64,000 nucleotides of DNA from a virus (taxonomy: Duplodnaviria; Heunggongvirae; Uroviricota; Caudoviricetes), in IMG/VR virus record IMGVR_UViG_3300000176_000003, positions 1 through 64,000 of that record, one strand, 5' to 3'. Every line of letters begins with the position of its first letter. Position 1 is the first letter of the stretch. A program made the translations under genes and the position numbers. Under the pieces are notes generated by a model. It saw only the letters and a list, made by a program, of their open reading frames with translations, did no database searches and was not told where the DNA came from. Shown here piece by piece: positions 10,284 to 61,692 of the stretch.

Positions 10284-10341
10284 CTTATAATAATCTTAGA
10301 TAAATTATTAGTATATTCCTCAATACAGTCGGAGACAAAAA

Positions 10342-13443: not shown

Positions 13444-13445
13444 TC

Positions 13446-15563: not shown

Positions 15564-15776
15564 GATTTTACGCATTATGGAGAACGAAATGACCACCAAT
15601 TACGTCCTAACCACGGCTGAAGGCCTTCGCCAATTCTATGCCGAGTTTGCCAGCCTTTTGGCCGACATCGACTACCTTGGTCTGACCGAGTACGAGATCG
15701 AGGTCGAAACCGCAGATTGACATTAATTCGAGGCCTGATAAAATGGTCTTACAAAATCGGAAACAAGGAAACGAAC

Positions 15777-16180: not shown

Positions 16181-16394
16181 AGAAACTGGACTAATTATTA
16201 AGGCCGTATGTTATATTACGATCCTTATCACTATTGCTTATTTTATGTTTCGTGTGGCTATTCCCTTTACTCTGGGTATGCCGTCTGATCTAGTGGTCCT
16301 CGCTATTCCTCTGCTTGTCGGTGGAACTATCGTTGGTCTGTTCTACCTCGGCTCTATCTTTTTCAACGACTTTACTTCTAAGAAGGATCAATAA
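16170..16394 (+). CDS. small two-TM membrane protein (possible NfeD-like partner of the SPFH protein)
   Basis: Two hydrophobic helices. Immediately upstream of, and 3 nt from, the SPFH gene. The frame is open from 16128. Confidence 0.4.
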   Translation: MVNKETGLIIKAVCYITILITIAYFMFRVAIPFTLGMPSDLVVLAIPLLVGGTIVGLFYLGSIFFNDFTSKKDQ

Positions 16395-16397
16395 TAC

Positions 16398-17228
16398 ATG
16401 CAACTTCGTAATGTAATTCTGTCTGTCTCTGCTGCTATGCTGCTTACTGCTTGTGGTCCTAATGTACAAGTAGGTAATGTTGGCTTTCTAGTTAAGACTG
16501 TTGGTGAAGGTGCTGGTGTTCAACCACAACCGCTTGCTGTTGGGTATCACTTTACTGGTCCTAATGAGTATATCATCGAATACCCTGCTATCACTCGTAC
16601 TTATCAGTGGACTAAGCCTGGGGATGGTGATAACAAGAACGCAAATGAAGAGTTTGCTTTCAATGACTCTACTGGTCTGCCTCTGACTGCTGATGTATCT
16701 GTTACTATGCACGTCGATCCTTCCAAGGTTGCAGAAATCTATACCAAGTATAAGCTTGACTTTGATGCTCTGCGTGATGGTCCTGTGCGTGCATATGTTC
16801 GTACTTCTATTGCTCTGGAAGCTTCCAAGCTGACTTCAGATCAACTTTATACTGCTGCTCGTCAACAAGTCATTACTAATGCTCTGAAGGACGTTCAACA
16901 ACACTTTGCTGGTTCTGGTATTGAAATCTCTGATCTACAGTGGATCGGGTCTATTCGTTTCCCTGCTGCTGTAACTCAAGCAATTGAGAACAAGACCAAG
17001 GCTGACCAGGAAGCACAAGTTGCTGAGCGCCAAGTACAAGTTGAAAAGAATCGTGCTGATGCTGCTGTTGCTAAGGCTCGTGGTGAAGCTGATGCTACTC
17101 GTATCAAGGGTGAAGCACTGCACGCTAACCCCCAAGTGCTGCAACAAGAGTGGATTTCCAAGTGGAATGGCGTTCTTCCAACCACTGTGACTGGTAGCAA
17201 TACTATGATGATGGTAAAGCCCGACTGA
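16398..17228 (+). CDS. SPFH/band-7 (prohibitin-like) lipoprotein
   Basis: Lipobox LLTACG. The C-terminal region AQVAERQVQVEKNRADAAVAKARGEADATRIKGEA resembles an HflK/C-type SPFH domain followed by a coiled coil. Confidence 0.6.
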   Translation: MQLRNVILSVSAAMLLTACGPNVQVGNVGFLVKTVGEGAGVQPQPLAVGYHFTGPNEYIIEYPAITRTYQWTKPGDGDNKNANEEFAFNDSTGLPLTADVSVTMHVDPSKVAEIYTKYKLDFDALRDGPVRAYVRTSIALEASKLTSDQLYTAARQQVITNALKDVQQHFAGSGIEISDLQWIGSIRFPAAVTQAIENKTKADQEAQVAERQVQVEKNRADAAVAKARGEADATRIKGEALHANPQVLQQEWISKWNGVLPTTVTGSNTMMMVKPD

Positions 17229-25272: not shown

Positions 25273-25395
25273 TATCTGTCAAGTATAGAGCAAGTCTAGT
25301 TTGGCGATTAGACTTGCTCTATACTTCCGAAAAAAACAGTTCTATTTGGCTATATTGTATTGGGTTCCCATACGAGATGCTTCGAGCGGTTTAGT

Positions 25396-25650
25396 TTTTC
25401 CATTTTTCCTTTTTCTATGGGTCCCCCCCAGGAAAATATAGGATTTCAATTTTCCATTTTTCCTTTTTCTATGGGTCCCTTTCAGAAAAGTATAGGGTCC
25501 CCCCTTTTCGTATACGGGTCCCTTTCAGAAAAGTATAGGGTCCCCCCCCACCTTATATTGGGTCCCCTTACGGGTCCCTTTCAGAAAAGTATAGGGTCCC
25601 TTTGATCCGTTCTACGGGTCCCTTTGATCCGTTTCACGGGTCCCTCTCTC
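25396..25650. repeat. intergenic iteron-like array: about 10 copies of GGGTCCC embedded in three families of 30-bp direct repeats
   Basis: ttttccatttttcctttttctatgggtccc occurs twice, gggtccctttcagaaaagtatagggtcccc three times and gggtccctttgatccgtt..acgggtccc twice. These contrast with the AT-rich surroundings. Confidence 0.8.
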
Positions 25651-44545: not shown

Positions 44546-44630
44546 TATAATCTTGTTACTAACATTATACTGCTATAAAAAATGGTGTCAAGAGAAAAAA
44601 ACATAAATACTCCATATAAAGGAGTAAAAT

Positions 44631-51200: not shown

Positions 51201-51477
51201 TTTAAGTGCCGCATCTGTATTTTCTGTTAATTTGAACTCAAATATTACTACATTGACTCTTAACAATCTTCAAGCATCAGGTAATACTACTTCATTCGTT
51301 CTTAACTTGACTGCTGATGGAACTGCAAGAACAGTTGCATGGCCTGCTGCATTTAGGTGGCCATCTGCTACAGCCCCAACACTTACATCAACACTAAATA
51401 AGACCGATGTTATTGTTGCATTTACATATGATAGCGGTACAAACTGGTTTGCATTTATTTCAGGACAAAATCTATAA
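45292..51477 (+). CDS. very long tail fibre protein (2061 aa)
   Basis: The N-terminus KIQHKRTSVSG...GEFAVNLADNKVF is a common phage fibre N-terminal module. It shares many ITGNAATA(F/Y)(S/A)NA(I/V)ANAA repeat units with the 1104-aa fibre. Confidence 0.65.
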   Translation: MANTKIQHKRTSVSGRLANTTDPSNSAFIDAGEFAVNLADNKVFASNGTVAFEIGSNLSNLSVSGTITVNGTSINSTNYSGTANNANYLSNISLSTLQSQITGNAATAFANAIANAASNAASIYQTYAGLPANVLMLTANSTTYLSNSSGTLANISSWITGNAATSYANAVANAAALYQTHGGLASNVLILAANSATYLSNSSGTLANIASWITGNSTTAYTNAISYANSAAVIAYSNAINYAANGVTNGAIVAANSTYSSNSGALGGLSLATLQSQITGNAATAFSNAIANAASNAAGIYQTHSGLASNVLVLAANSATYLSNSSGTLANIASWVTGNAATAYANAVANAAAVYQTTAGLSANILTLTANSANYIGTLPAANVVSNAQLQSNLASYALLSGATFSGVVNTSSNVNITGSLVVTGNLTIAGQTTYVNTTVISTSDKAIYLSANSTSSLNSDGSGIVATNAAALLYNDSTKSWQANISITPTTNSTFNLGGSANYWSNVYANQVYGTLMTVSQPNITANNSTNFGGLSLTTVQGQITGNAATAFSNAIANAASNAAGIYQTMAGLSANVATLTANASGYLGNSSGTIANISSWVSGNAATAYSNAVANAAALYQTTAGLSANVLTLTSNNALNLGGVTASKYVNTSGTYTLSGVIDFAGNTIFQGGISANGVYGNTDQALTSNGSGGVYWRDNPPVAIDQQMNGFLDGNAETSISFDGTNTFTLTDTGSGWHIYISGKKYYFTGNRTVTLSASPPATAGRYFVSINSTGNLSVSSSSWDWTDPSIASVAFINWNNSNTPKYFMSDERHTVLMTLRHRYNLHTTVGPRIQTFGALGYTLGGTTSANNLVTVSTSVIEQEDLIKSITAITANTVGVVNNYTTFYRTAVNPDVWTWGQSDMPFVYQTGGGYIYWDNNGVLTSGTNNHYYNSYVLMTTYGSYTIVTGRGSYNTLADAQAEDITSWDWSVVTGVELVFAYQLTWQAKSSSSQEGRVALQAVRKIAVSTSSAVSSLSSAVHNQLSGLQGGYGASEFYHLNATSYSAVLNTAALGLGIGNGLTSNSTYFYVNSNTGIIANATGLYIDPSYTVNSANYLANSSGTLSNIQSWITGNSATAYTNSVNYIANGVTNGTILAANATYATNSGALGGLSLTTIQSQITGNAATAYSNATTYSSNASNLSTGTVSTARLGSGTANSTTVLYGNGVWSTVSGGGSVNTAAQYTWTNTQIYSSNIVINNNIDINFKTTNGNTVSFIQQSDDNFVFYSTNASGAARAIWSVFANSATSNVNFSAPVNFSANVGFGSVALYANGSSGTTGQVLSSNGTGLYWQSLGAASVNTAAQYTWTNTHSFTANVSFSGTGLGLTTNTTAIYFNGVSDANWRMSRNSSAFTKAYYTNNSIDIAVAGSSLEGFSIGQVGNVSFFETGYAGSWFRSNVAIGNVTWSSAMLTVGGTANVSGNLIAGTTSTNVQVQFLSNSQIAPSAGFTGNASLLIGGGGGNYLAIGQSNSTLGNSYWMQSGFNGASPVYYPINLNPLGGNVSIGSTSIPTATLSVTGTANISGNVAFASNVSITGNSTSELLISTINTTSSGIIANGTIITLGNSSVNVSINSTAFSGTSNNSTNFGGLSLTTLQGQITGNSATAYSNATSYTDTSASTTYTNAINYSANGVTNGAWVAANSLYSSNSGALGGISLATLQNQITGNASTAYTNAVTRSANASNITTGTLPYAQLPANVVIWSNNNVFAGNQSFSNAQITVKLQVGPISGFDFGSNSLIQIDGTTNTYLQSVIQNANSGTNASGDLVITSDTGNDSVNYVDLGINSSTYNQAGFNITGIGDAYLYSSNSNLVMGTASAKEVVFHANGTTSTDRKFTINATSITVANTVSFVANGSAGTNGQVLSSNGTGLYWSTPAVNTAAQYTWTNTHSFTSNVSFSSTITTKLISANSSTQTQASPTISSNILTLDLSAASVFSVNLNSNITTLTLNNLQASGNTTSFVLNLTADGTARTVAWPAAFRWPSATAPTLTSTLNKTDVIVAFTYDSGTNWFAFISGQNL

Positions 51478-51977
51478 TGGCTAGTTTCGCATATGTAGAA
51501 AATAATGAGATTCAGGGAGTTTATGATCTTCTTCCTGATAATTGGAAGAATTATAGCAACTTCTTTGCCTTAGAAAACGATCTTGATTATCTTAAGTCTT
51601 TGGGTTGGTATAAAATTGAGAAGGTTATTCCTTCTTATGACCCAGCTACACAAAAGCTAGATAATGCTAGACAATGGTTTGAAAATAACATAGTATATGA
51701 AACAGAAGAAGTCATTGATCTTTCTGCAGAGCCAATAATAGAGCCAGTGTCACAAGAAGAATTAACTTTAAGACAATGGAATTTGATTAAAACTCAACGT
51801 GATCAGTTGATAGCAAGTTTTGATTGGAGATATATTCGTTATAATAGAGAAGTTAGACTCAATATTACTCCAAGTGATGATATTACTAAGCTTGATGTGT
51901 ACACCCAAGCACTAGCAGATATTCCTGAAAAACAATCTGATCCCTTTAATATTGTATGGCCAGTATTTAGTGAGTAA
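51477..51977 (+). CDS. tail fibre assembly chaperone (Tfa/DUF4376-like)
   Basis: The C-terminal ...RQWNLIKTQRDQLIASFDWRYIRYNRE...YTQALADIPEKQSDPFNIVWPVFSE fits the R..LL..sDW....YRqaL.D.P....FP..i.WP pattern of tail fibre assembly proteins. It is coupled to the fibre gene (TAATG). Confidence 0.6.
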   Translation: MASFAYVENNEIQGVYDLLPDNWKNYSNFFALENDLDYLKSLGWYKIEKVIPSYDPATQKLDNARQWFENNIVYETEEVIDLSAEPIIEPVSQEELTLRQWNLIKTQRDQLIASFDWRYIRYNREVRLNITPSDDITKLDVYTQALADIPEKQSDPFNIVWPVFSE

Positions 51978-51980
51978 AAA

Positions 51981-54900
51981 ATGCTTTTAGAAAAATGGCT
52001 TCTAGCTAGACAAATCGCATCTGGTCCTATTACAAGTAGATATCTTTATACTGTTGGTGATAACACTTACGGTGAAATTGGTGATAATACAATAGTCAAT
52101 AAATCTTCTTTGACTAAGATTGGCACTCTTTCTTGGCAATCAGTTTCAGTAGGCTCATCTCATACAGCAGCTATTAGATCAGATGGTCTTTTGTTTGCTT
52201 GGGGATTTAATAGCAGTGGTCAATTAGGACTATTGGATACTGTTCATAGATCATCTCCAGTACAAGTAGGTACTTCATCTTGGACATCAGTATCTGCCAA
52301 AAGTATTAATACCTTTGCTATTAGAAGCGATGGGTTGTTATTTGGTTGGGGGGATATGACTTATGGCCAACTAGGTAATAATAGTTTAATTAGTAATTAC
52401 CAAACATCTAGTTGGACAAAAATGTCTTCTGGTGGTAGCCATACAGTAGCTATTAAATCGGATGGAACTCTTTGGGGATGGGGTTATAACGGGTTAGGTC
52501 AATTAGGTTTAAATGATACTAATTATAGATCATCTCCAGTACAAGTAGGTACTTCATCTTGGACTCAAGTATCTGCTGGGCTTAATCATACAACAGCTAT
52601 AAGAACTGATGGTGGCTTGTTTACATGGGGAAATAATCTTTATGGCAATTTAGGTCTAAATGATACTGTTCATAGATCATCTCCTGTACAAGTAGGTTCT
52701 TCATCTTGGACTTCTATATCTTCTGGTGGTAGCCATACAGTAGCTATAAGAACTGATGGTGGCTTGTTTACATGGGGTTATAATAGTTTTGGTCAATTAG
52801 GTTTAAATGATACTAATTATAGATCATCTCCAGTACAAGTAGGTACTTCATCTTGGACTTCTATATCTTCTGGGGTTAATCATACAACAGCTATAAGAAC
52901 TAATGGTGGTTTGTTTACATGGGGTTATAATACTGTTGGTCCATTAGGTTTAAATGATAGAGTTAATAGATCATCTCCTGTGCAAGTAGGTACTTCATCA
53001 TGGACTCTAGTATCGGCTGGATATTATCATACCGCAGCTATTAGATTAGATAATACCTTATGGACATGGGGTTATAACAATAATGGTCAATTAGGTTTAA
53101 ATGATACTAATTATAGATCATCTCCAGTACAAGTAGGCACTTCATCGTGGACATTAGTATCTGCTGGACAATATCATACCGCAGCTATTAGATTAGATAA
53201 TACCTTATGGACATGGGGTTATAACAATAATGGTCAAATAGGTGACAATACTAGTTTTGCTACAAATAAATCATCTCCGGTACAAGTAGGTACTTCATCA
53301 TGGACTCAGGTATCTGCTGGTCAATCTCATACAACAGCTATAAGAACTGATGGTGGTCTATTCGCTTGGGGAAGTAATGGTAGTGGTCAATTAGGTTTGA
53401 ATGATTTGGTTCATAGATCATCTCCTGTACAAGTAGGTAGCAACCCTTATACAGTATCACCAGTACAAATTGGATCTTCATCTTGGACTCAAGTATCTGC
53501 CGGATCTAGCCATGTACTAGCAATTCGCTCTGATAAAGCTTTATTTGCATGGGGTAGCAATAGTATTACACAATTAGGTGATGGTACTGTTGCTCATAGA
53601 TCATCTCCAATACAAATTGGGTCTTCATCATGGTCACAGGTATCTGCTGGTCAATCTCATTCCTTAGGTATCGATACTAATAACAAACTATACACATGGG
53701 GAGGTAGTTCATCTTTATCCGCAGCGGCATACTCATGGAAATTGATATCTTCTGGTCGTTATCATATTACAGCTATTAGATCAGATGGCGGTTTATTCAC
53801 ATGGGGCGATAATAATAATGGTCAATTAGGTCTAAATGATACTGTTCATAGATCATCTCCAGTACAGGTAGGTACATCATCATGGACTCAAGTATCTGCT
53901 GGTACTACTCATACAGCAGCTATAAGAACTGATGGTGGTCTATTCGCTTGGGGAAGTAATGGTAGTGGTCAATTAGGTTTAAATGACGTTGTTCATAGAT
54001 CATCACCAGTACAAGTAGGTACTTCATCTTGGACTCAAGTATCTGCTGGGCTTAATCATACAACAGCTATAAGAACTGATGGTGGTTTGTTTACATGGGG
54101 TTATAATAGTTTTGGTCAATTGGGTTTGAATGATACTATTTCTAGATCATCTCCGGTACAAGTCGGTACTTCATCTTGGACTTCGATTGCAGCAGGTTAC
54201 AGTCATAGTCTTGCAATTCGTGCTGATAATACATTATGGACATGGGGTTATAATACTGTTGGTCAATTAGGTTTGAATGATACTATTTCTAGATCATCTC
54301 CGGTACAAGTAGGTACTTCATCATGGACTTTAGTAAGTGCAGGCTCAAATCATGCGGCTGCCATTAGAATTGATGGTGGCTTGTTTACATGGGGTTATAA
54401 TCTTTATGGTCAATTAGGTTTGAATGATTTGGTTCATAGATCATCTCCTGTACAAGTAGGTACTTCATCTTGGACTCAAGTATCGGCTGGATATTATCAT
54501 ACAGCAGCTATTAGATTAGATAATACCTTATGGACATGGGGGAATAATACTAATGGTCAATTAGGTTTAAATGATAATATTTCTAGATCGTCACCAGTAC
54601 AAGTAGGTACTTCATCATGGACTCTAGTATCGGCTGGATATTATCATATAGCAGCTATTAGATCAGACACTGTATTATTTGCTTGGGGATATAACGGTTT
54701 CGGTCAATTAGGTTTGAATGATACTATTTCTAGATCATCACCTGTGCAAGTATCAACAAGTATTGCTGTACCAGCAAAAGTCGGTACTTCATCTTGGACT
54801 TCGATTGCAGCAGGTTACAGTCATAGTCTTGCAATTCGTGCTGATAATACATTATGGGGTTGGGGAAATTATGCTTCTAATGTGATTCCATCTTATAGTT

Positions 54901-56204
54901 GGAAACTAATTTCCTCTGGTGGTTATCATACATTAGCAATTCGTTCAGATAATATGCTATTTGCTTGGGGACAAAACACTTACGGTCAAATAGGTGACAA
55001 TACTAGTTTTTCTACAAATAAATCATCACCAGTATTAATAGGTATTTCATCTTGGTCTTTAGTAAGTGCAGGTAGGTATTATTCGGCTGCTATTAGAACT
55101 GACGGGGGTTTATTTACCTGGGGACAAAACACTTACGGTCAATTAGGTTCTGGTACTTCTGGCGCAAGCGTAAATAGATCATCTCCAGTACAAGTAGGTA
55201 CTTCATCATGGACTCAGGTATCTGCGGGGCTCTCTCACTTATTAGCTATTAGATCTGATGGTGGTTTATTCACATGGGGTTATAATGGTCAAGGTCAATT
55301 AGGTTCTGGTACAGTTACTAATAGATCATCTCCTGTGCAAGTAGGTACATCATCTTGGACTCTAGTGGCAGGTGGAGGTTATTATTCGTCTGCTATTAGA
55401 ACTGATGGTGGTTTATTTACTTGGGGTCAAAACACTAACGGCCAATTAGGTTCTGGTACAGTTACTAATAGATCATCTCCAGTACAAGTAGGTACTTCAT
55501 CATGGACTCAGGTATCTTCTGGTTGGTCACATACTGTTGCTATTAGATCTGATGGGGGTTTATTTTCATGGGGAGCCAATTCTAATGGTCAATTAGGCTC
55601 CAACGCAACTACTCATAGATCATCACCTGTACAAGTAGGTACATCATCTTGGAATCTTATAGCAACAGGACGTTATCATACAGCAGCTATTAGATCTGAT
55701 GGTGGTTTATTTGCTTGGGGGTATAATGCTTATGGTCAATTAGGTTCTGGTACAGTTACTAATAGATCATCACCGGTACAAGTGGGTACTTTATCTTGGA
55801 CTCAGGTATCTGTTGGTACTACTCATACTGTAGCTATTAGATCAGACACTGTATTATTTGCTTGGGGATATAACGGTTTCGGTCAATTGGGTGATAATAC
55901 AAATAATCTTTATAGGTCATCACCTGTACAAGTAGCTGCAGATAATATTCAGTTTAATCTCCTTAATACAATATTAAGTCCTACACAAATTGGCTCAAGC
56001 TCTTCATGGACAAATATAGCCGCTGGATCTAACTATTCTGTCGGTATAAATAATAATGCATTATATGGTTGGGGTTACAATATCAATAACCAAGTATTAG
56101 GTTCTGACATACATTATGTCACATCCCCAACACAAATAACTTCTAGTTCTCCACTTGTTGTGTCCGCTTCTGAAATTCATACTGGAGTTATTAGTACAAC
56201 ATAA
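51981..56204 (+). CDS. RCC1-repeat (beta-propeller) protein, 1407 aa
   Basis: At least 25 repeats of the form HT.AIR.DG.LF.WG.N..GQLGL.D...RSSPVQVGTSSWT.VSAG, the regulator-of-chromosome-condensation repeat signature. Confidence 0.7.
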   Translation: MLLEKWLLARQIASGPITSRYLYTVGDNTYGEIGDNTIVNKSSLTKIGTLSWQSVSVGSSHTAAIRSDGLLFAWGFNSSGQLGLLDTVHRSSPVQVGTSSWTSVSAKSINTFAIRSDGLLFGWGDMTYGQLGNNSLISNYQTSSWTKMSSGGSHTVAIKSDGTLWGWGYNGLGQLGLNDTNYRSSPVQVGTSSWTQVSAGLNHTTAIRTDGGLFTWGNNLYGNLGLNDTVHRSSPVQVGSSSWTSISSGGSHTVAIRTDGGLFTWGYNSFGQLGLNDTNYRSSPVQVGTSSWTSISSGVNHTTAIRTNGGLFTWGYNTVGPLGLNDRVNRSSPVQVGTSSWTLVSAGYYHTAAIRLDNTLWTWGYNNNGQLGLNDTNYRSSPVQVGTSSWTLVSAGQYHTAAIRLDNTLWTWGYNNNGQIGDNTSFATNKSSPVQVGTSSWTQVSAGQSHTTAIRTDGGLFAWGSNGSGQLGLNDLVHRSSPVQVGSNPYTVSPVQIGSSSWTQVSAGSSHVLAIRSDKALFAWGSNSITQLGDGTVAHRSSPIQIGSSSWSQVSAGQSHSLGIDTNNKLYTWGGSSSLSAAAYSWKLISSGRYHITAIRSDGGLFTWGDNNNGQLGLNDTVHRSSPVQVGTSSWTQVSAGTTHTAAIRTDGGLFAWGSNGSGQLGLNDVVHRSSPVQVGTSSWTQVSAGLNHTTAIRTDGGLFTWGYNSFGQLGLNDTISRSSPVQVGTSSWTSIAAGYSHSLAIRADNTLWTWGYNTVGQLGLNDTISRSSPVQVGTSSWTLVSAGSNHAAAIRIDGGLFTWGYNLYGQLGLNDLVHRSSPVQVGTSSWTQVSAGYYHTAAIRLDNTLWTWGNNTNGQLGLNDNISRSSPVQVGTSSWTLVSAGYYHIAAIRSDTVLFAWGYNGFGQLGLNDTISRSSPVQVSTSIAVPAKVGTSSWTSIAAGYSHSLAIRADNTLWGWGNYASNVIPSYSWKLISSGGYHTLAIRSDNMLFAWGQNTYGQIGDNTSFSTNKSSPVLIGISSWSLVSAGRYYSAAIRTDGGLFTWGQNTYGQLGSGTSGASVNRSSPVQVGTSSWTQVSAGLSHLLAIRSDGGLFTWGYNGQGQLGSGTVTNRSSPVQVGTSSWTLVAGGGYYSSAIRTDGGLFTWGQNTNGQLGSGTVTNRSSPVQVGTSSWTQVSSGWSHTVAIRSDGGLFSWGANSNGQLGSNATTHRSSPVQVGTSSWNLIATGRYHTAAIRSDGGLFAWGYNAYGQLGSGTVTNRSSPVQVGTLSWTQVSVGTTHTVAIRSDTVLFAWGYNGFGQLGDNTNNLYRSSPVQVAADNIQFNLLNTILSPTQIGSSSSWTNIAAGSNYSVGINNNALYGWGYNINNQVLGSDIHYVTSPTQITSSSPLVVSASEIHTGVISTT

Positions 56205-56262
56205 TAGTTGACATTATTTTTAATTTGATATATTATACACTAAACATGATAAAGGAATTACT

Positions 56263-57987
56263 ATGCACGATATTGATTTGATGCTTAAACTACAGCTAGA
56301 AGGCAAGCACAAAGAAGCGAGAGATATTTCAGATAAAATTGAAATGGGTGGACCAGAACAATTAAAAGATGTTCGGGGAAATAGTACTGAAGATATTTGG
56401 TTTAGACATTGCTTCAATAGAGGCTGGTTCATTATTAATGATGGAGATTATCAAGCGGGATGTCAGTTGCTTGAACATGGCCGTTTTCTAAATGTATACG
56501 GTTCTCCACCACTCTATACACAAGCTCCTATCTTTAATCCAGAGCAGCACGACATCACTGATAAGTCTATTATCGTATCACTAGAAGGTGGATATGGCGA
56601 TGAGATTATTCATGCTCGATTTGCTACATCATTCAAGAAGATGGGTGCCAAGGCAGTATACATTGCTGCGGCTCCAGAACTTGTATCTGTATTTGAGCGT
56701 ATTGAGGGGGTTGATGGCGTAATCCTTCGTAATCAAGCCCATACAGTTCCGCATGATTTCTGGGTCCCAGGATTCTCTGCAGGATGGGTCGCTGGACATA
56801 CTTTCGATAACTTCCCAAATGATCCCTATCTATCTCCAAGACACGAATCAGTAGAAGTGTGGAAGACTATGATTAATTCAGATAAGATTAAGGTAGGTAT
56901 TCGCTGGGCTGGTAATCCTAAGTTTGAGCATCAACAATTCCGTAAGTTCCCAGAGAACTTCATTACTAATCTTGTCAAGTATGATGAACTACAAATCTAT
57001 AGTCTACAAAGAGATCATAATCTACTAGAACTGCCTGAAGGTGTAGCTGATCTGCAGCACTTCCTACTTTCTTGGGAAGATACTTTGGCGGCAATTGCTA
57101 ATCTAGATATTGTAATCTCATCCTGTACTTCTATTGCGCATATTGCGGCTGCTATGGGTAAGGAAACTTGGGTCATTACTCCAATCCTTCCATATCATAC
57201 TTGGACTCCAGGAGCCCCGGATTCAAATACTTCGCCTTATTATAAATGTGTAAGAGTATTCAGACAAGATGATTCTAAGACTTGGAATGGCTGTTTCCAA
57301 CAACTGTATGCTGATCTAGAAGAAAAGTTTAACCTAAAGCATATTGATATGCCCAATGAAGATCGTTCTTATAAGAAACTAAATCTTGGTTGCGGGCTTC
57401 AAAAGCTAAATGGTTTTGTGAATGTTGATAAGTCTGATCTAGTTTCACCTGATCAAAAAGTTGATTTAAACATTACTCCTTGGCCTTGGAAAGATAATGA
57501 ATTCGACCATATTGTAGCTAAAGATATTCTTGAACATCTTGGTGATACAAATGAAGAATTTATTGATATACTAAAAGAAATATATAGAGTATCTGAAAAC
57601 GGTGCAATTTGGGAAGTACAAGTACCACATTGGAGATGTGATACTGCGCTAGATGATCTGACACACAAGCGTCTAATTACTCTAGGGATGTTTAATCTAT
57701 TCAATAAGAGAATGCTTATTGAAAGAGCGCGACAAGGTCAATCAGATTCTTTACTTGCCTTTGAGCATGATATGGATATTGAAATTTGTGATGTTCAATT
57801 TGAGTATACTCCACCTTGGCAAGATCGTTTAAAGGCAGGAAAAATTACACAAGAAGAATTAAATTATGCTTTGAATCATTTTAATAATGTTGCTTTATCT
57901 ATGCGTCTATTGGTACAAACACATAAGCCAGGACGAATTGATGATGAAGAATTGAAGAGAGTACTTAATGAACAGTCTATTTTATAG
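56263..57987 (+). CDS. bifunctional glycosyltransferase family 9 (heptosyltransferase-like) / class I SAM-dependent methyltransferase
   Basis: N-terminal half: GGYGDEIIHARF ... IRWAGNPKFEHQQFRKFP ... DTLAAIANLDIVISSCTSIAHIAAAMGKETWVI (GT9 pattern). C-terminal half: LNLGCGLQKLNGFVNVD ... HIVAKDILEHL (Methyltransf_11-like). Confidence 0.6.
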   Translation: MHDIDLMLKLQLEGKHKEARDISDKIEMGGPEQLKDVRGNSTEDIWFRHCFNRGWFIINDGDYQAGCQLLEHGRFLNVYGSPPLYTQAPIFNPEQHDITDKSIIVSLEGGYGDEIIHARFATSFKKMGAKAVYIAAAPELVSVFERIEGVDGVILRNQAHTVPHDFWVPGFSAGWVAGHTFDNFPNDPYLSPRHESVEVWKTMINSDKIKVGIRWAGNPKFEHQQFRKFPENFITNLVKYDELQIYSLQRDHNLLELPEGVADLQHFLLSWEDTLAAIANLDIVISSCTSIAHIAAAMGKETWVITPILPYHTWTPGAPDSNTSPYYKCVRVFRQDDSKTWNGCFQQLYADLEEKFNLKHIDMPNEDRSYKKLNLGCGLQKLNGFVNVDKSDLVSPDQKVDLNITPWPWKDNEFDHIVAKDILEHLGDTNEEFIDILKEIYRVSENGAIWEVQVPHWRCDTALDDLTHKRLITLGMFNLFNKRMLIERARQGQSDSLLAFEHDMDIEICDVQFEYTPPWQDRLKAGKITQEELNYALNHFNNVALSMRLLVQTHKPGRIDDEELKRVLNEQSIL

Positions 57988-58675
57988 TTATAATACACAA
58001 GTAGAATCTGCATATATTATAACAGTAAAAGGCCACCAACAATCAGAAAAGATATCGAGGCGCTGTCAAGAGTCTTGTGGCAAAGTCTCGATGTCTTATA
58101 AAGTTTGGGATGCTTTTGACGGGACTGGTAATAATATTGTAGTTCCAGAACATAGCAAAAACGAGACTATAAGTAATATAGTCAAGGTTACAGATCATTA
58201 TCTTACTCGTGGTGAAGTGGCTTGCGCATTGAGTCATATTAGTCTTTGGGCTCATTGCGCTAGAATTGATCAACCAATAGTTATTCTTGAGCACGATTCT
58301 ATTATGATCAAGAAGTTTGAATCACACGATTCGTTCAATTCAATCATATATCTTGGTGGACAAGAATGGGCGAAGCAGAATTGGCAGATTTATCCAATTC
58401 CACCCCATGCATCTGAGGGGCCAAATTACCATTTCATTTGCAGAGCGCATGCATATTCTATTGATCCAACAATGGCAAAGAATCTTCTTTCATATGTTAT
58501 AAAAGAAGGGATATCTGCCCCACTAGATATTATGCTTAGAGCAGACTTATTCAATATTACTCATCAGGGTCTTTATGCTTATGATGATAATACAAATGCA
58601 ACAAATGATACTACAATCAAAGCTAGGCCTGTTGAGGGTAGAACAACCAAGCGAAATGATAGATTGGAATATTGA
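57968..58675 (+). CDS. glycosyltransferase family 25 (LPS/LOS biosynthesis type)
   Basis: AYIITVKGHQQSEKISRR... and YLTRGEVACALSHISLW match the GT25 motifs (iyvInL..s.eRr; lt.GEiGCalSH..lW). Confidence 0.65.
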   Translation: MNSLFYSYNTQVESAYIITVKGHQQSEKISRRCQESCGKVSMSYKVWDAFDGTGNNIVVPEHSKNETISNIVKVTDHYLTRGEVACALSHISLWAHCARIDQPIVILEHDSIMIKKFESHDSFNSIIYLGGQEWAKQNWQIYPIPPHASEGPNYHFICRAHAYSIDPTMAKNLLSYVIKEGISAPLDIMLRADLFNITHQGLYAYDDNTNATNDTTIKARPVEGRTTKRNDRLEY

Positions 58676-59286
58676 TGTATAAATTTACTATGGATTTTAA
58701 CTACGGTAATGAATTAGGCGGAGCAAAGAGAAACATCGCTCAGTTAATTAATGCTTTTGGTATTCCTAATACTATCATTGAAGTAGGTGTATTTGAAGGT
58801 GGTACTACTTTTTGGATGAATGATGAACTTTGTAAGGTTAATCCTAATCTTAAGATTTATGCCATTGATCCTCATGTTGGCAGTAATGATATGAGTGAAG
58901 ACTTTAATATGGTTGCGGATAATTTTAATCATAACATGCATGTCTGCCCTGATAACAAGATCAAACACATTAAACTTCCTAGTGAAGATGGTCTAATATA
59001 TCTTCGTAATATTGGAGCTAAGGCTGAATTGATTTATATTGATGGGGATCATAGAGCCGGGCCTGTTATGTCTGATCTTGTTCTAGCTTGGAAACTCTTG
59101 CAGAAGGGTGGTGTTATACTTTGTGATGACACTACGGTTTGGAAGTATGATGATGGATCAAATACATTTCCTGCTCAGATGAGCCCCAGAATGGCAGTTG
59201 AATTCTTCATTCAATGTCATTGGCACGAACTTCAATTAATATCACTAGAGAATCCTATTCAAACCGCATTTATGAAAATGGTCTGA
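58672..59286 (+). CDS. class I SAM-dependent O-methyltransferase (TylF/Methyltransf_24-like)
   Basis: IIEVGVFEGGTTFWM ... YIDGDHRAGPVMSDLVLAWKLLQKGGVILCDD. Confidence 0.5.
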   Translation: MMYKFTMDFNYGNELGGAKRNIAQLINAFGIPNTIIEVGVFEGGTTFWMNDELCKVNPNLKIYAIDPHVGSNDMSEDFNMVADNFNHNMHVCPDNKIKHIKLPSEDGLIYLRNIGAKAELIYIDGDHRAGPVMSDLVLAWKLLQKGGVILCDDTTVWKYDDGSNTFPAQMSPRMAVEFFIQCHWHELQLISLENPIQTAFMKMV

Positions 59287-60095
59287 TGATTACTTGTGCT
59301 TATACAATCTGTAAGAATGAACTTCAATTCGTAGAGAAGTGGCTTTATTATACTAAAGACTTTACGTACCGTTGCATTCTTGATACAGGATCGACTGATG
59401 GAACATATGAAGCTTTTCAAAAAGCAGCCGAGACTGATCCGAATCTTATTTTAGAGCAAAAGATCTTTACACCCTGGAAATTCAATGTAGCTAGAAACTA
59501 TAACCTAGACATGATTCCTCAGAATGTTGATTGGTGTCTTTCTCCTGATCTTGATGAGTATTTTTCGATCAATGTTCTAGATGAGATGCAAAATACTATC
59601 AAAGAAAATACAAATGTAACTAATATTGCCTGTGATAGACTTGACCTATATACTAAGAATGTTAGAGTAGGACCACCACACAGCCTTCCTACTAATAAGA
59701 TTCATAGAAGACACGACTATACTTGGGCTCAACCTATCTATGAACATCTCTGGTTTAAACATAAAGATCGCAATGAAGTAGAAATTTATAATGATATGAT
59801 TTACTTAATTCATGATCAAGATTTCAAAAAGCAGTCTAGGCCAGAACTATATACTCAAATGCTTAAGGATGAATTTGAAACTAATCCTACTAATTGCTGG
59901 ACTCTCTGGTTTCTTCTTAATCATTATTTCAAAGAGCAAGATCTTCCAAATTTTATTGAATGTGCTATAGTATTTGTACAGCACGCCAATAAAGATGATA
60001 GAAGAGAGCAAGTCGTTAGTGCCCTTAAAGGTATATACCAAACACAACCTTTAACTATTGACCAAAAACAACAGATATTGAGATCATTAGGATAA
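59286..60095 (+). CDS. GT-A fold glycosyltransferase (family 2-like)
   Basis: MITCAYTICKNELQFVEKW ... ILDTGSTDGT ... DLDEYF (DxGSTDGT and DxD-like). ATG overlaps the upstream TGA. The frame is open from 59214. Confidence 0.5.
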   Translation: MITCAYTICKNELQFVEKWLYYTKDFTYRCILDTGSTDGTYEAFQKAAETDPNLILEQKIFTPWKFNVARNYNLDMIPQNVDWCLSPDLDEYFSINVLDEMQNTIKENTNVTNIACDRLDLYTKNVRVGPPHSLPTNKIHRRHDYTWAQPIYEHLWFKHKDRNEVEIYNDMIYLIHDQDFKKQSRPELYTQMLKDEFETNPTNCWTLWFLLNHYFKEQDLPNFIECAIVFVQHANKDDRREQVVSALKGIYQTQPLTIDQKQQILRSLG

Positions 60096-60898
60096 TGAAG
60101 ACTTTTCACTTTCTATCAGGATTGCCTAGATCGGGTTCTACAGTTCTATCTGCAATTCTCAATCAACGCCCCGAAGTATACGTTACGCCAACGTCTCCTA
60201 TGCTAGATATTCTTATTGAGAACCAAAATGCTTGGAGGAATTTGCCTTCATTTATAGCAAATCCGAATGAAGATCAGCTTACAAATATTACTAGAGCAAT
60301 GATTCATGCTACATGGGAACATAGGCCAGAACAAATTATTATTGATAAGAATCGTGGGTGGGGTAAAAATATGCCAGCATCTACAATCTTGTTTGAAAAA
60401 GAAATTAAGATGATTGCTACTACCCGAGATTTGCCTAGTATAATGGCGTCGTGGCTTACTCTATTACATAACAACCCAAATAGTTATATGACTCAGGTTC
60501 TTCAAAAGCGTCATATTCGCGCAACTGATGAAAATATGATGCTTGAAATGTGGAATAATATGGTTAAGGACTGTATGGAAAGTTTAGTTTGTGCTAAGAG
60601 AGATGCGGGCAATAGGCTTTTATTAATTGATTACGACCAATTAATAAAAAATCCTGAAGAACAAGTCCACTCTATTGAAAAATTTTTAGGATTGATTCCT
60701 TTTAACTATAACTTTACTAATATAAAATCTGAAACTAATGATGATGATTTGAGTGCTTGGGGATTACAGGGTATGCATACCATTAGACCACAACTTAAAA
60801 AAATAGCAAAAAATCCGAGAGAGGTTCTTGGGGACAAGTTATTTGACAAGTTTGTTCAATTGGAAATGTTGTATAAAGGGAAAGATTATAAATACTAA
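60095..60898 (+). CDS. sulfotransferase family protein
   Basis: 5'-PSB-like GLPRSGSTVLSAIL and 3'-PB-like IATTRDLPSIMASW. TAATG coupling with the upstream gene. Confidence 0.6.
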   Translation: MKTFHFLSGLPRSGSTVLSAILNQRPEVYVTPTSPMLDILIENQNAWRNLPSFIANPNEDQLTNITRAMIHATWEHRPEQIIIDKNRGWGKNMPASTILFEKEIKMIATTRDLPSIMASWLTLLHNNPNSYMTQVLQKRHIRATDENMMLEMWNNMVKDCMESLVCAKRDAGNRLLLIDYDQLIKNPEEQVHSIEKFLGLIPFNYNFTNIKSETNDDDLSAWGLQGMHTIRPQLKKIAKNPREVLGDKLFDKFVQLEMLYKGKDYKY

Positions 60899-60918: not shown

Positions 60919-61692
60919 ATGGCTGCACCTGGAACAACATTTCAACAAACTTTAGGAGTTTCTAGCAAAGATCAATTGAAAGATTATTGCTTAAGACGCC
61001 TGGGTGCGCCGGTTATTGAAATCAACGTGGATGATGATCAAGTTGATGATCGTATCAATGATGCCTTAAAGTTTTATTGGGATTATCACTTTGAAGGGTC
61101 AGAAAAACAATATTACAAATATGGACCAATTACAAGCCAAGATGTAGCCAATAGATATATTACATTACCACAAAATATAATTGGGGCTGTTAGAGTATTT
61201 CCTATTGGTCAGGCATTATCGACAAATAATCTGTTCAATATTCGCTACCAAATTGCGCTAAATGATCTATACGATCTGACAGCAACAACGATGGTTCCAT
61301 ATTATATGGCAATGCAACATATTCAGTTTCTCGAACAATTATTGGTTGGGGAAAATGCTATCAGATATAATAGAGTAAACAATATTCTTTATATTGATAT
61401 GGATTGGCATATTGTAAGTGTTGGTCAATATTTTATTATTGAATGTTATCAGGTAGTAGATCCAGACACATATACTTCTGCTTGGAGTGATCGTTGGTTA
61501 CAAAGATATGCTACAGCAATGATCAAACAACAGTGGGGTACAAACCTAAGCAAGTATACTGGTGTTGCTCTTCCTGGAGGATTAAAATTTAATGGTGCTC
61601 AAATCTATAAGGAAGCGACAGACGAAATTGCAGCACTAGAAAAAGAAATGATCAATAGTTATTCATTCCCACCGGATATAATGATTGGCTAG
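60919..61692 (+). CDS. neck protein gp13-like (by position)
   Basis: 257 aa. Lies two genes upstream of the confidently recognised gp15, in the T4 order 13-14-15-16-17. Confidence 0.4.
   Translation: MAAPGTTFQQTLGVSSKDQLKDYCLRRLGAPVIEINVDDDQVDDRINDALKFYWDYHFEGSEKQYYKYGPITSQDVANRYITLPQNIIGAVRVFPIGQALSTNNLFNIRYQIALNDLYDLTATTMVPYYMAMQHIQFLEQLLVGENAIRYNRVNNILYIDMDWHIVSVGQYFIIECYQVVDPDTYTSAWSDRWLQRYATAMIKQQWGTNLSKYTGVALPGGLKFNGAQIYKEATDEIAALEKEMINSYSFPPDIMIG

What the first reader, a model, noticed from the sequence alone, without database searches (positions are those of the whole stretch)
56263..60898. Five-gene glycan-modification cassette inserted between fibre genes and neck gene 13, where T4 has wac
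The consecutive, translationally coupled genes encode a GT9-methyltransferase fusion, a GT25 glycosyltransferase, a TylF-like O-methyltransferase, a GT2-like GT-A transferase and a sulfotransferase. This is the enzymatic repertoire for making a methylated, sulfated oligosaccharide. Its location inside the late structural block, immediately after a PA14 protein, an RCC1 propeller and the fibres, suggests glycosylation of virion proteins, which would amount to a phage-encoded virion glycosylation/sulfation system. The alternative is late remodelling of host LPS or O-antigen to block superinfection or release progeny. No nucleotide-sugar synthesis genes are in the window, so host UDP/ADP-sugars and PAPS would be needed.
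Basis: partly seen in the sequence, partly recalled or inferred. Interest (0 to 1): 0.75.

Follow-up and report, generated by a model that had tools for sequence, protein, structure and literature searches.

The report
Phage sugar-methyl-sulfate cassette beside RCC1 fibre gene
A T4-like freshwater phage carries five intact, tightly packed genes for sugar-adding, methylating and sulfating enzymes, and comparison with about 100 related loci ties their lead enzyme to the giant RCC1-repeat protein encoded next door, which points to modification of that fibre-like protein rather than of the host cell surface, although this remains unproven.

Summary
Five translationally coupled + strand genes (56263-60898) encode a TPR/GT9-fold/methyltransferase fusion, a GT25 transferase, a Methyltransf_24 O-methyltransferase, a GT2-like transferase and a PAPS-type sulfotransferase. 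All are under strong purifying selection (dN/dS 0.04-0.11).

New findings:
- The lead gene g1 has a giant RCC1-repeat gene within 3 kb in 58 of 68 well-flanked loci. These include freshwater and marine phages and Bdellovibrionota contigs, where the RCC1 protein carries a Tat signal.
- GT25 follows in 63% of loci. The O-methyltransferase, GT2 and sulfotransferase are accessory (15-25%).
- Domain fusions elsewhere (GT9-sulfotransferase, sulfotransferase-MT, GT2-MT24) link the enzymes into one pathway.
- The block has its own history: 86-97% nucleotide identity to its nearest relative, against 40-79% in the flanks.
- It has its own sigma-70-type promoter, not a late one.
- The sulfotransferase's nearest solved relatives are protein-tyrosine sulfotransferases, but their catalytic Glu is absent.

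Best reading (about 0.5): cytoplasmic glycosylation, methylation and sulfation of the RCC1 fibre-like protein, analogous to TibC-TibA. Main rival (about 0.27): remodelling of host envelope glycans. It is a new variant of a known kind. No biochemistry exists.

The parts
51477..51977 (+). Tail-fibre assembly chaperone (Phage_tail_APC). In relatives it usually precedes the RCC1 gene and g1.
   Evidence: Pfam PF16778, 8.4e-11. Synteny across relatives.
51981..56204 (+). 1407-aa RCC1-repeat protein (about 24-26 blades). It is 26% Ser+Thr and has very low charge, like the fibres. Proposed partner and substrate of the cassette.
   Evidence: Pfam RCC1 3e-276, 24 repeats. Composition and the repeat motif 'RSSPVQVGTSSWT'. 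An RCC1 gene lies within 3 kb of g1 homologues in 58 of 68 loci.
56045..56052 (+). TATAAATA (T4-type late-promoter motif) inside the 3' end of the RCC1 gene. It could allow late read-through into the cassette.
   Evidence: All six copies in the window are on the + strand.
56208..56236 (+). Sigma-70-type promoter-like site, TTGACA-N17-TATTAT, 26 nt before the g1 ATG.
   Evidence: 11/12 match, the best in 51-64 kb. It is the only site of 11/12 or better on the + strand in the 26-64 kb structural block. It is identical in L007. Other relatives have sigma-70-like, TATAAATA or ATAAGTA elements at this position.
56263..56490 (+). g1 residues 1-76: two TPR-like helical hairpins. The same region is longer (140-190 aa) in divergent homologues.
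   Evidence: AF2 helices at residues 3-76. A profile of divergent homologues matches consensus TPR proteins at 7.6e-7 to 1e-4, and the alignment runs through the g1 segment 'FNRGWF..GDYQAG'.
56560..57330 (+). g1 residues about 100-356: GT-B domain of GT9 fold.
57370..57987 (+). g1 residues about 370-574: class I SAM-dependent methyltransferase (Methyltransf_11 type). In other lineages it is a separate gene.
   Evidence: Pfam 22 bits against a cut-off of 21.2; PHROG 6636 at 1.3e-14. Fold hits 3cc8 and 3l8d. Separate 182-202 aa homologues occur in L089, L091 and L087.
57968..58675 (+). g2: GT25 glycosyltransferase. After RCC1 it is the most constant partner of g1.
   Evidence: PF01755, 2.6e-16. 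Found within 3 kb of g1 in 43 of 68 loci. The 'EHD' motif is invariant in 51 homologues. 49% identical to the Bdellovibrio chromosomal neighbour of a g1 homologue.
58675..59286 (+). g3: Methyltransf_24 (TylF/CmcI-like) O-methyltransferase.
   Evidence: PF13578, 2.6e-15. The 'DGDH' motif and the SAM motif are conserved. In S-SRM01 this domain is fused to a GT2 domain.
59286..60095 (+). g4: GT2-like GT-A glycosyltransferase.
   Evidence: PF13704, 27.7 bits against 27.5. PHROG 13126 at 3e-32. 'DTGSTD' is conserved. 51% identical to a homologue in an unrelated phage contig, L089.
60095..60898 (+). g5: PAPS-type sulfotransferase.
   Evidence: PF13469, 1.8e-16. 'PRSGST' and 'RD..S' are invariant. 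AF2 pLDDT 90. The top 13 fold hits are tyrosylprotein sulfotransferases, 9e-9 to 1e-7.
60887..60894 (+). TATAAATA late-promoter motif for gp13. It marks the right boundary of the exchanged block.
60919..61692 (+). gp13-type neck protein (followed by gp14 and gp15). Flank, not part of the cassette.
   Evidence: PHROG 211 at 1.6e-41. Matches to annotated neck-protein genes of cyanophages and Caulobacter phage Cr30.

Best explanation
The five genes form a cytoplasmic protein-modification pathway. Its main client is the giant RCC1-repeat, fibre-like protein encoded immediately upstream.

Proposed steps:
1. g1 docks on the repeat protein through its TPR hairpins.
2. The GT9-fold domain of g1 puts a first sugar on hydroxyl side chains in the reiterated blade motif (RSSPVQVGTSSWT).
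3. The GT25 enzyme, and where present the GT2-like enzyme, extend the glycan.
4. The two methyltransferase domains cap hydroxyls.
5. The sulfotransferase adds sulfate from host PAPS to the glycan or to a side chain.

The enzymes have no membrane segments and would use host nucleotide sugars, SAM and PAPS. The block has its own host-type promoter, so the enzymes would be present before or while the fibre proteins are made.

Shown here: domain identities, functional constraint, gene linkage, the fusions, and the separate history of the block. Inferred: the substrate, the order of steps, the donor sugars and the consequence for adsorption.
For: - Linkage. Among 100 distinct loci with a g1 N-domain homologue, 68 have at least 3 kb on both sides. 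In 58 of these 68 an RCC1 gene lies within 3 kb, and in 45 within 300 nt. RCC1 is rare in phages: 18 of 50,697 records. The only three cultured or single-virus phages with a g1 homologue (BUCT-ZZ01, S-SRM01, AG-345-E08) are the top three RCC1 hits.
- Linkage survives rearrangement. In L003 RCC1-g1-GT25 is followed by ribonucleotide reductase genes instead of gp13. The set RCC1, MT11, TPR-GT9, g4-like and sulfotransferase recurs in unrelated phage contigs L089 and L091. It also recurs in marine AG-345-E08, where it is interleaved with P4H-type 2OG-Fe(II) oxygenases.
- Bacterial loci. In Bdellovibrionota contigs without recognisable phage genes the GT9-like gene abuts an RCC1 gene, with or without a sulfotransferase. 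Those RCC1 proteins carry twin-arginine signals (SRREF, SRRGF), so they would be exported already folded. The transferase itself has no signal.
- TPR plus GT-B architecture, and a fold match to the protein heptosyltransferase TibC.
- Fusions. GT9-like with sulfotransferase in L087, sulfotransferase with methyltransferase in P0221, and GT2 with Methyltransf_24 in S-SRM01.
- The nearest solved relatives of g5 by sequence and by fold are protein-tyrosine sulfotransferases.
- No hydrophobic segment reaches transmembrane level in g1-g5.
- RCC1 composition (26% Ser+Thr, 3.7% Asp+Glu) resembles that of the fibres.
Against: - No direct evidence exists that any protein is modified or that the RCC1 protein is in the virion.
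- In a complete Bdellovibrio chromosome the g1N-GT25 pair sits beside PBP1C and alpha-2-macroglobulin with no RCC1 within 8 kb. About 15% of loci lack RCC1 nearby.
- Gene adjacency to a receptor-binding protein is also what a receptor-modifying system would show.
- The TPST catalytic Glu aligns to Thr33 in g5, so Tyr sulfation is not implied.
- Homologous sulfotransferases occur in phages without RCC1, for example S-SKS1.
Confidence: 0.5

Rival explanations
1. Remodelling of host envelope glycans. The enzymes add and cap sugars, with methyl and sulfate, on the host's LPS core or O-chain, exopolysaccharide or S-layer glycan during infection. This would block superinfection or stop progeny from sticking to infected cells and debris. 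The linkage to the RCC1 gene would then arise because RCC1 is the receptor-binding protein and the enzymes alter its receptor.
For: - GT25 is Pfam's 'LPS biosynthesis' family. The GT9 fold is shared with WaaC and WaaF.
- The cyanophage literature interprets such genes as host cell-wall modification genes (PMC12801897).
- The sigma-70-type promoter fits early expression.
- The Bdellovibrio chromosomal g1N-GT25 pair lies next to envelope genes and lacks RCC1.
- From my own knowledge, not tested here: in P22 and epsilon15, receptor-modifying genes lie beside the tailspike gene.
Against: - There is no membrane-embedded component, flippase, polymerase or lipid-carrier transferase. g1-g5 lack transmembrane segments.
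- The TPR module is typical of protein-binding transferases.
- RCC1 linkage persists in bacterial contigs, where a phage anti-superinfection logic does not apply and where RCC1 is Tat-exported.
- Related modules are interleaved with prolyl/lysyl-hydroxylase-type oxygenases, which points to protein chemistry.
Confidence: 0.27
2. The RCC1 protein is not the substrate but a partner of the enzymes. It could be a lectin-like scaffold that binds the glycan they make, or a fibre whose folding or assembly needs g1 as a chaperone-like factor independent of catalysis.
For: - The tight RCC1-g1 adjacency.
- The TPR domain.
- g1 is far more conserved than RCC1: 94% against 62% identity between the window and L007.
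Against: - Putative catalytic and cofactor residues of both g1 domains are invariant down to 25% identity, and dN/dS is 0.06. This is not expected for a purely structural role.
- The other four enzymes and the fusions imply real chemistry.
Confidence: 0.1
3. The enzymes hypermodify phage DNA, or make a small-molecule or secondary-metabolite glycoside, and the position in the fibre module is incidental.
For: - Phage glycosyltransferases are known to decorate DNA with diverse glycans (Pyle et al. 2024, as cited in PMC12619734).
- Iyer et al. proposed secondary-metabolite roles for cyanophage oxygenase arrays (PMC2938197).
Against: - No hydroxymethylase or base-modification gene was found among the window ORFs I scanned.
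- The conserved linkage to RCC1 in phages and bacteria is unexplained by this reading.
- From my own knowledge: none of GT9, GT25 or GT2 is among the known DNA glycosyltransferase families.
Confidence: 0.05

Closest known systems
TibC-TibA and AAH-AIDA-I: bacterial autotransporter heptosyltransferases with a GT9-like fold
   Same: - A GT9-fold, soluble cytoplasmic transferase is encoded directly beside a very large protein made of many near-identical repeats rich in Ser/Thr.
   Different: - No sequence-level relationship.
- Only one Cys is invariant in the GT domain, so the four-Cys iron finger of TibC (my own knowledge) is not evident.
- The client is a beta-propeller array, not a beta-helix autotransporter.
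- g1 adds TPR and methyltransferase domains and comes with four more enzymes.
- The donor sugar is unknown.
Mycobacteriophage virion glycosylation (Freeman et al. 2023, Cell Host Microbe; cited in PMC12801897 and PMC12619734)
   Same: Phage-encoded glycosyltransferases sit among structural genes and act on virion proteins in the cytoplasm (as summarised).
   Different: - There the targets are the C-termini of capsid and tail-tube subunits of actinobacteriophages.
- Here the inferred target is an RCC1-repeat, fibre-like protein of a T4-like myovirus.
- The enzyme families differ.
- Methylation and sulfation are added.
- Nothing here is experimentally shown.
Cyanomyovirus 'LPS / cell-wall synthesis and modification' gene clusters (e.g. 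P-SSM2, S-SCSM1, S-SCSM2R; PMC12801897)
   Same: Clusters of GT2, GT25 and other glycosyltransferases, epimerases and 2OG-Fe(II) oxygenases in T4-like aquatic phages. The closest cultured relatives of this cassette are Kyanoviridae.
   Different: - Those clusters are interpreted, without experiment, as host-surface modifiers, and are not reported as linked to a specific structural gene.
- This module is anchored to RCC1 genes, has a TPR-GT9-MT lead enzyme and includes a sulfotransferase.
Predicted hydroxylase-sulfotransferase operons with phage tail-collar or collagen-like proteins (Iyer, Aravind et al. 2010, PMC2938197)
   Same: A computational prediction that a fibre-like protein co-encoded with sulfotransferases (sometimes fused to methyltransferases, and with PAPS synthetase) is the substrate and becomes sulfated. 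The related modules L089 and L092 carry an APS-kinase-like gene and 2OG oxygenases respectively.
   Different: - Those operons are bacterial and centred on dioxygenases.
- They have no glycosyltransferases and no RCC1 proteins.
- The window cassette has no oxygenase.
OGT/SPINDLY-type TPR-GT-B protein glycosyltransferases (GT41)
   Same: N-terminal TPR repeats followed by a GT-B catalytic domain. In GT41 enzymes the TPR repeats select protein substrates (my own knowledge). SPINDLY appears among the weak TPR hits.
   Different: The catalytic domain is of GT9 fold, not GT41. There are only about two TPR motifs in g1.

Membership tests
Glycosyltransferase family 9 (PF01075 / heptosyltransferases) | GT-B fold closest to GT9 structures | tested here: met
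Glycosyltransferase family 9 (PF01075 / heptosyltransferases) | Sequence match to the family model above its curated cut-off | tested here: not met
   PF01075 scores 11.2 bits, E 0.23, against a cut-off of 22. There is no NCBIfam hit. A Bdellovibrio homologue reaches 17 bits.
Glycosyltransferase family 9 (PF01075 / heptosyltransferases) | N-terminal Gly-Asp catalytic-base motif and C-terminal nucleotide-sugar motif | tested here: inconclusive
   'GGYGDEIIH' (G110, G112, D113) and 'SCTSIAH' (S287, C288, H293) are invariant. They resemble the GT9 motifs as I recall them, but no residue-level superposition was possible. The Asp of the canonical 'D-T/S-G' appears to be replaced by Cys.
Glycosyltransferase family 9 (PF01075 / heptosyltransferases) | ADP-heptose as donor | not testable with these tools
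   Needs enzymology.
BAHT protein heptosyltransferases (TibC/AAH) | Encoded next to a giant repeat-protein substrate | tested here: met
   An RCC1 gene lies within 3 kb in 58 of 68 loci.
BAHT protein heptosyltransferases (TibC/AAH) | Iron-binding Cys cluster / dodecamer | tested here: not met
   Only C288 is invariant in the GT domain across the family. The TibC feature itself is from my own knowledge. Oligomeric state is not testable here.
Glycosyltransferase family 25 (PF01755) | Match above the curated cut-off | tested here: met
   60.5 bits against a cut-off of 24.
Glycosyltransferase family 25 (PF01755) | Acidic metal/nucleotide-binding motif ('EDD' in the solved GT25 8xlz) | tested here: inconclusive
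   g2 has 'EHD', which is invariant in 51 homologues. It is a conserved variant and its effect is unknown.
TylF/MycF-type sugar O-methyltransferases (PF05711) and the Methyltransf_24 clan | Match above the curated cut-off | tested here: not met
   PF05711 scores 18.4 against 23, so TylF itself is not met. Methyltransf_24 is met (57.6 against 26.3) and CmcI is barely met (23.7 against 23.2). 'TylF-like' therefore holds only at clan level.
TylF/MycF-type sugar O-methyltransferases (PF05711) and the Methyltransf_24 clan | SAM motif and metal-binding Asp motif | tested here: met
   'E.G...GGT' and 'DGDH' are conserved in 19 homologues.
GT2 (PF00535 / PF13704) | Match above the curated cut-off, and a GT-A nucleotide-binding / DxD motif | tested here: inconclusive
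   PF13704 scores 27.7 against 27.5 (marginal). PF00535 scores 17.8 against 23.3 (not met). PHROG 13126 gives 3e-32. 'DTGSTD' is conserved and 'DLD' is present.
PAPS-dependent sulfotransferases (PF13469 / PF00685) | Family match plus 5'-PSB and 3'-PB PAPS-binding motifs | tested here: met
   61.5 bits against 27. P11, R12, G14, S15, T16 and R111, D112, S119 are invariant in 32 sequences.
Protein-tyrosine sulfotransferases (TPST) | Closest solved structures | tested here: met
   phmmer: TPST1 at 4.7e-5. Foldseek: ranks 1-13 are all TPSTs, 9e-9 to 1e-7, TM about 0.54.
Protein-tyrosine sulfotransferases (TPST) | Catalytic Glu (Glu99 of TPST2) | tested here: not met
   In the HMMER alignment the 'GEET' of TPST aligns to the invariant 'TPTS' of g5, putting Thr33 at the Glu position. 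The numbering of the TPST residue is from my own knowledge.
Seroconversion-type host O-antigen modifiers (gtrABC, Oac) | Integral-membrane flippase / transferase components | tested here: not met
   The maximum 19-residue hydropathy in g1-g5 is 1.51 or lower, so there is no transmembrane-grade segment.
Phage virion glycosylation systems (mycobacteriophage type) | Glycan demonstrated on virion proteins | not testable with these tools
   Needs glycoproteomics of virions.

The most novel reading that the evidence does not exclude
A previously undescribed and widespread system in which predators of bacteria glycosylate, methylate and sulfate their RCC1-propeller adhesins in the cytoplasm. The predators are aquatic T4-like phages and Bdellovibrionota. 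The lead enzyme is a TPR-GT9-fold transferase. This would be the first sulfated virion component in a bacteriophage, and a new client class (beta-propeller arrays) for GT9-fold protein glycosyltransferases.
Probability: 0.35. Interest if true: 0.85.

Novelty: new variant of a known kind. Interest (0 to 1): 0.68.

Why it matters
Phage-encoded modification of virion proteins is experimentally established only for mycobacteriophages. In aquatic T4-like phages, glycosyltransferase clusters have been assigned to 'host LPS modification' by default.

This module is abundant. The search found 1,663 clusters for the lead enzyme and 928 for the sulfotransferase. It is strongly constrained and mobile as a block, and it is tied to a specific, rare class of fibre-like protein.

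If that protein is the client:
- Receptor-binding structures of environmentally dominant phages would carry methylated, sulfated glycans. This would bear on host range, adsorption, particle stability and stickiness, and grazing or immune-type recognition.
- GT9-fold enzymes would gain a second protein-substrate paradigm besides the autotransporters.
- The shared module in Bdellovibrionota would link phage and bacterial-predator attachment biology.

Two cultured phages make this directly testable: BUCT-ZZ01 on Synechococcus elongatus PCC 7942, and S-SRM01.

Tried and rejected
- Near-identical DNA in cultured phages: none found.
- Sequence-level assignment of the g1 N-domain: Pfam, NCBIfam and a profile against PDB sequences all failed for the GT part. 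Only the TPR part was found. Fold search was required.
- 'Non-functional remnants': rejected, because dN/dS is 0.04-0.11 and motifs are invariant.
- 'Recent foreign insertion by composition': GC is 0.35-0.38, the same as the neighbours. The separate history shows only in the comparison with L007.
- A conserved late promoter for the cassette: not found. Upstream elements differ among relatives.
- Discriminating LPS-type from protein-type GT9 enzymes by fold ranking: not possible. WaaF, WaaC and TibC score within 1 Z unit of each other.
- TPST orthology for g5: rejected, because the catalytic Glu is missing.
- An RCC1/cyanophage literature hit (PMC12906663) turned out to refer to Roscoff culture-collection strain numbers.
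- The S-SRM01 paper says nothing on this module. The only held paper that mentions BUCT-ZZ01 is a general review, which I did not open.
- Freeman et al. 2023 could not be opened.
- S-SKS1 sulfotransferase context: uninformative.
- tRNA and Rfam scans of the window: empty.
- L085/L083, where g1 lacks an RCC1 neighbour: the upstream large proteins have no Pfam hit.

Full report
**1. What is in the sequence**

The window is part of a T4-like myovirus. It carries:
- gp5-type hub/lysozyme and spike at 1.6-4.5 kb
- gp25 at 25703
- gp6, gp7-like and gp8 at 26-33.5 kb
- a DUF4815+PA14 protein at 33573
- an S74-chaperone fibre at 40725
- a 2061-aa fibre at 45292
- a tail-fibre assembly chaperone at 51477
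- a 1407-aa protein of 24-26 RCC1 repeats at 51981-56204
- after the region in question, gp13, gp14 and gp15

The same phage exists in public data as a 156,302-bp contig. No cultured phage is close at the DNA level. The nearest cultured relatives are freshwater Kyanoviridae.

Between RCC1 and gp13 lie five + strand genes:

| Gene | Coordinates |
|---|---|
| g1 | 56263-57987 |
| g2 | 57968-58675 |
| g3 | 58675-59286 |
| g4 | 59286-60095 |
| g5 | 60095-60898 |

Their junctions are a 20-nt overlap, then TGATG, TGATG and TAATG. The g4 start is corrected to 59286, which independent gene calls also use.

**2. Identity of the five proteins**

- g2 is a clear GT25 member (60.5 bits against a cut-off of 24).
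- g3 is a clear Methyltransf_24 member (57.6 against 26.3). It is TylF/CmcI-like only at clan level.
- g5 is a clear PAPS-type sulfotransferase (61.5 against 27).
- g4 is marginal for Pfam GT2 (27.7 against 27.5) but strong for PHROG 13126, annotated 'beta-1,4-glycosyltransferase' (3e-32).

For g1, sequence methods find only the C-terminal class I methyltransferase. GT9 scores 11 bits, below its cut-off of 22. An AlphaFold2 model (pLDDT 87, pTM 0.74) shows three parts:
- two helical hairpins (residues 1-76)
- a GT-B domain (about 100-356)
- a Rossmann methyltransferase (about 370-574)

The g5 model (pLDDT 90) is closest to tyrosylprotein sulfotransferases, which fill ranks 1-13 (9e-9 to 1e-7). 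Olefin-synthase and heparan-sulfate sulfotransferases follow at about 1e-6. This agrees with the sequence search. However, the TPST catalytic Glu aligns to an invariant Thr in g5, so TPST membership fails and the acceptor stays open.

None of the five proteins has a transmembrane-grade hydrophobic segment.

**3. Are the genes functional?**

Yes.
- Cofactor and candidate catalytic motifs are invariant across homologues:
  - GGYGDE and SCTSIAH in the g1 GT domain
  - LNLGCG and ILEH in its MT domain
  - EHD in g2
  - DGDH in g3
  - DTGSTD in g4
  - PRSGST and RD..S in g5
- Against the nearest relative (L007), dN/dS is 0.04-0.11 for all five genes.
- The g1 family has 1,663 clusters in the protein collection, and the top 120 are all full length. 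The g5 family has 928 clusters.

**4. Context in about 100 related loci**

I fetched loci from IMG/VR, ENA/JGI contigs, GenBank phages and GTDB genomes. I mapped the window's proteins onto them. There are 100 distinct loci with a g1 N-domain homologue, and 68 of these have at least 3 kb on both sides. In those 68 loci the following genes lie within 3 kb of the g1 homologue:

| Neighbour | Loci (of 68) | Share |
|---|---|---|
| RCC1 | 58 | 85% |
| GT25 | 43 | 63% |
| Methyltransf_24 | 17 | 25% |
| Sulfotransferase | 12 | 18% |
| gp13 | 11 | 16% |
| g4-like | 10 | 15% |

RCC1 lies within 300 nt in 45 of the 68 loci. The constant core is therefore RCC1 - g1 - GT25. Genes g3-g5 are accessory, and proximity to gp13 is incidental.

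RCC1 proteins are rare in phages: 18 of 50,697 records at E ≤ 1e-10. The three GenBank phages that have a g1 homologue are exactly the three best RCC1 hits.

The association survives rearrangement and divergence:
- L003 has RCC1-g1-GT25 followed by ribonucleotide reductase.
- L089 and L091 are other phage lineages. L089 has S74 fibre - RCC1 - RCC1 - MT11 - TPR-GT9 - g4-like (51% identical) - sulfotransferase ×2 - an APS-kinase-like P-loop protein. L091 has a reduced version of the set (S74 fibre, MT11, TPR-GT9, one sulfotransferase).
- Marine virus AG-345-E08 interleaves three RCC1 genes with TPR-GT9, sulfotransferase, GT25, several 2OG-Fe(II) oxygenases (some of P4H type) and a GDP-mannose-dehydratase-like gene.
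- S-SRM01 shows a similar set beside its baseplate and fibre genes.

**5. Fusions**

Elsewhere the same domains are fused in other combinations:
- GT9-fold + sulfotransferase-like, with MT11 as a separate gene (L087)
- sulfotransferase + methyltransferase (P0221)
- GT2 + Methyltransf_24 (S-SRM01)
- GT9-fold + MT11, in 69 of 100 loci

These fusions argue that the enzymes act in one pathway.

**6. Bacterial relatives**

The GTDB scan found homologues mainly in Bdellovibrionota and in MAG bins that look like mis-binned phage contigs.

- In a Bdellovibrio MAG contig of 181 kb, the order is two DUF4423 regulators, a 1729-aa secreted protein, the GT9-like gene, a 765-aa RCC1 protein and a 1140-aa secreted protein. 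No recognisable phage genes are present.
- The RCC1 proteins there and in L105 begin with twin-arginine signals (SRREF, SRRGF). The transferase has none. Tat substrates are exported already folded, which suits a cytoplasmic modification step. This last point is an inference.
- Against this, a complete Bdellovibrio chromosome has the g1N-GT25 pair (GT25 is 49% identical to g2) next to alpha-2-macroglobulin and PBP1C, with no RCC1 within 8 kb.

**7. The cassette as a unit, and its expression**

Nucleotide identity between the window and L007 is 0.86-0.97 from about 56,065 (in 200-nt bins; one search places the start of near-identity nearer 56,165) to about 60,860. It is 0.39-0.79 on both sides. 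At the protein level the cassette is 91-96% identical, against 62-75% for the RCC1 C-terminus and gp13-15. Synonymous divergence is also lower: 0.28-0.86 against 1.1-1.5. The block, including its upstream intergenic region, therefore has a more recent common history than its flanks, which indicates exchange as a unit. L007 carries a sixth gene, another class I methyltransferase, between g3 and g4.

The intergenic region before g1 contains TTGACA-N17-TATTAT. At 11/12 it is the best match in 51-64 kb. It is also the only site of 11/12 or better on the + strand in the 26-64 kb structural block. The other five + strand sites lie among small accessory genes at 6-16 kb.

T4-type late motifs (TATAAATA) precede five other genes, including gp13. 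They occur here only inside the RCC1 3' end, at 56045.

Relatives carry sigma-70-like, TATAAATA or ATAAGTA elements before g1. So g1 generally has its own promoter, but the class varies. 'Late' expression is thus not supported for this phage, although read-through is possible.

**8. Interpretation**

The evidence best fits a cytoplasmic protein-modification pathway whose principal client is the adjacent RCC1-repeat, fibre-like protein. In composition this protein resembles the fibres (26% Ser+Thr, very low charge). It reiterates an 'RSSPVQVGTSSWT' motif about 23 times.

The closest mechanistic analogue is the TibC-TibA / AAH-AIDA-I pair. There, a GT9-fold soluble enzyme encoded beside a giant repeat protein glycosylates Ser residues before export. 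That mechanism is from my own knowledge; the structural match is shown. g1 is not a member of that family by sequence or by its Cys pattern.

Two prior works are relevant:
- Phage virion glycosylation has been demonstrated for mycobacteriophages (Freeman et al. 2023, as summarised in PMC12619734).
- Iyer et al. (PMC2938197) predicted that tail-collar or collagen-like proteins co-encoded with hydroxylases, sulfotransferases and PAPS synthetase are hydroxylated and then sulfated.

I found no paper that describes the RCC1-GT9-GT25-sulfotransferase module.

**9. Rivals**

Host envelope-glycan remodelling remains plausible. GT9 and GT25 are LPS-core families. The promoter is of the early type. The literature default is host-surface modification. 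The Bdellovibrio chromosomal pair lacks RCC1. A receptor-modifying system could also be linked to a receptor-binding protein.

Against this rival stand four points:
- There are no membrane components.
- g1 carries a TPR module.
- The RCC1 linkage persists in bacterial contigs.
- Related modules contain protein-hydroxylase-type oxygenases.

A non-catalytic chaperone or scaffold role for g1, and DNA or small-molecule targets, are less likely.

**10. Verdict**

- Observation: confirmed.
- Interpretation: partly supported, and sharpened. The target is probably the RCC1 protein. The cassette is not demonstrably late. The sulfate acceptor is undetermined. g1+GT25 is a lineage fixture, while the block as a whole is mobile.
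- Novelty: a new variant of a known kind (phage-encoded protein glycosylation), with a possibly new element, sulfation of a virion component.
- Status: everything about substrates is inference. The experiments listed under next steps would decide it quickly, because two cultured phages carry versions of the module.

Noticed in passing
window 25360-25650: Short 22-nt direct repeats (GGGTCCCTTT...) lie in an ORF-poor stretch at 23.5-25.7 kb. That stretch includes the most GC-rich kilobase of the window (0.47 at 24-25 kb). The repeats sit just before the TATAAATA at 25661 and gp25. No tRNA and no Rfam family matches there.
   Followed up: partly
window 44564-44591 (minus strand): A perfect 12/12 sigma-70 consensus (TTGACA-N16-TATAAT) points leftwards in the gap between two + strand genes. 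There is no minus-strand ORF behind it.
   Followed up: no
window 6266-15744: Five of the six strong + strand sigma-70-like sites cluster among small accessory genes (Endonuclease_NS, bactofilin-like, metallophosphatase, Band_7, GP88 and others). These genes lie between the gp5 hub and gp25, so they form an early-type island inside the baseplate region.
   Followed up: partly
window, all six TATAAATA sites (4925, 25661, 45149, 56045, 60887, 63117): All six are on the + strand, and five lie just upstream of gene starts. The total count is below chance expectation (6 against 12), which is consistent with a selected late-promoter motif.
   Followed up: partly
L007 3934-4545: The nearest relative has a sixth cassette gene between g3 and g4. 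It is a 203-aa class I SAM methyltransferase.
   Followed up: yes
L003 12469-13146; L092 10123-10809; L002 12069-12749: A family of about 226 aa with no Pfam hit follows GT25 in about 17 related loci. These include marine AG-345-E08 and S-SRM01. The family is absent from the window. It may be a further pathway component.
   Followed up: partly
L089 10783-11283: A 166-aa P-loop protein with weak adenylyl-sulfate-kinase similarity lies directly after two tandem sulfotransferase genes in an unrelated phage contig. This hints at phage-supplied PAPS.
   Followed up: partly
L104 9041-11338; L105 9059-11272: In Bdellovibrionota, the RCC1 proteins next to the GT9-like gene have twin-arginine (Tat) signal peptides. 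The flanking proteins of more than 1100 aa have Sec signals.
   Followed up: yes
L092 (marine virus AG-345-E08) 2000-17000: Three RCC1 genes are interleaved with six 2OG-Fe(II) oxygenase genes, DUF6445 and a GDP-mannose-dehydratase-like gene. The arrangement resembles a hydroxylation-plus-glycosylation pathway of the collagen kind.
   Followed up: partly
window 13446-14192: This 248-aa ORF has no Pfam hit. It is homologous (31% identity, 6e-10) to S-SRM01 gp342, which lies inside that phage's RCC1/transferase module.
   Followed up: no
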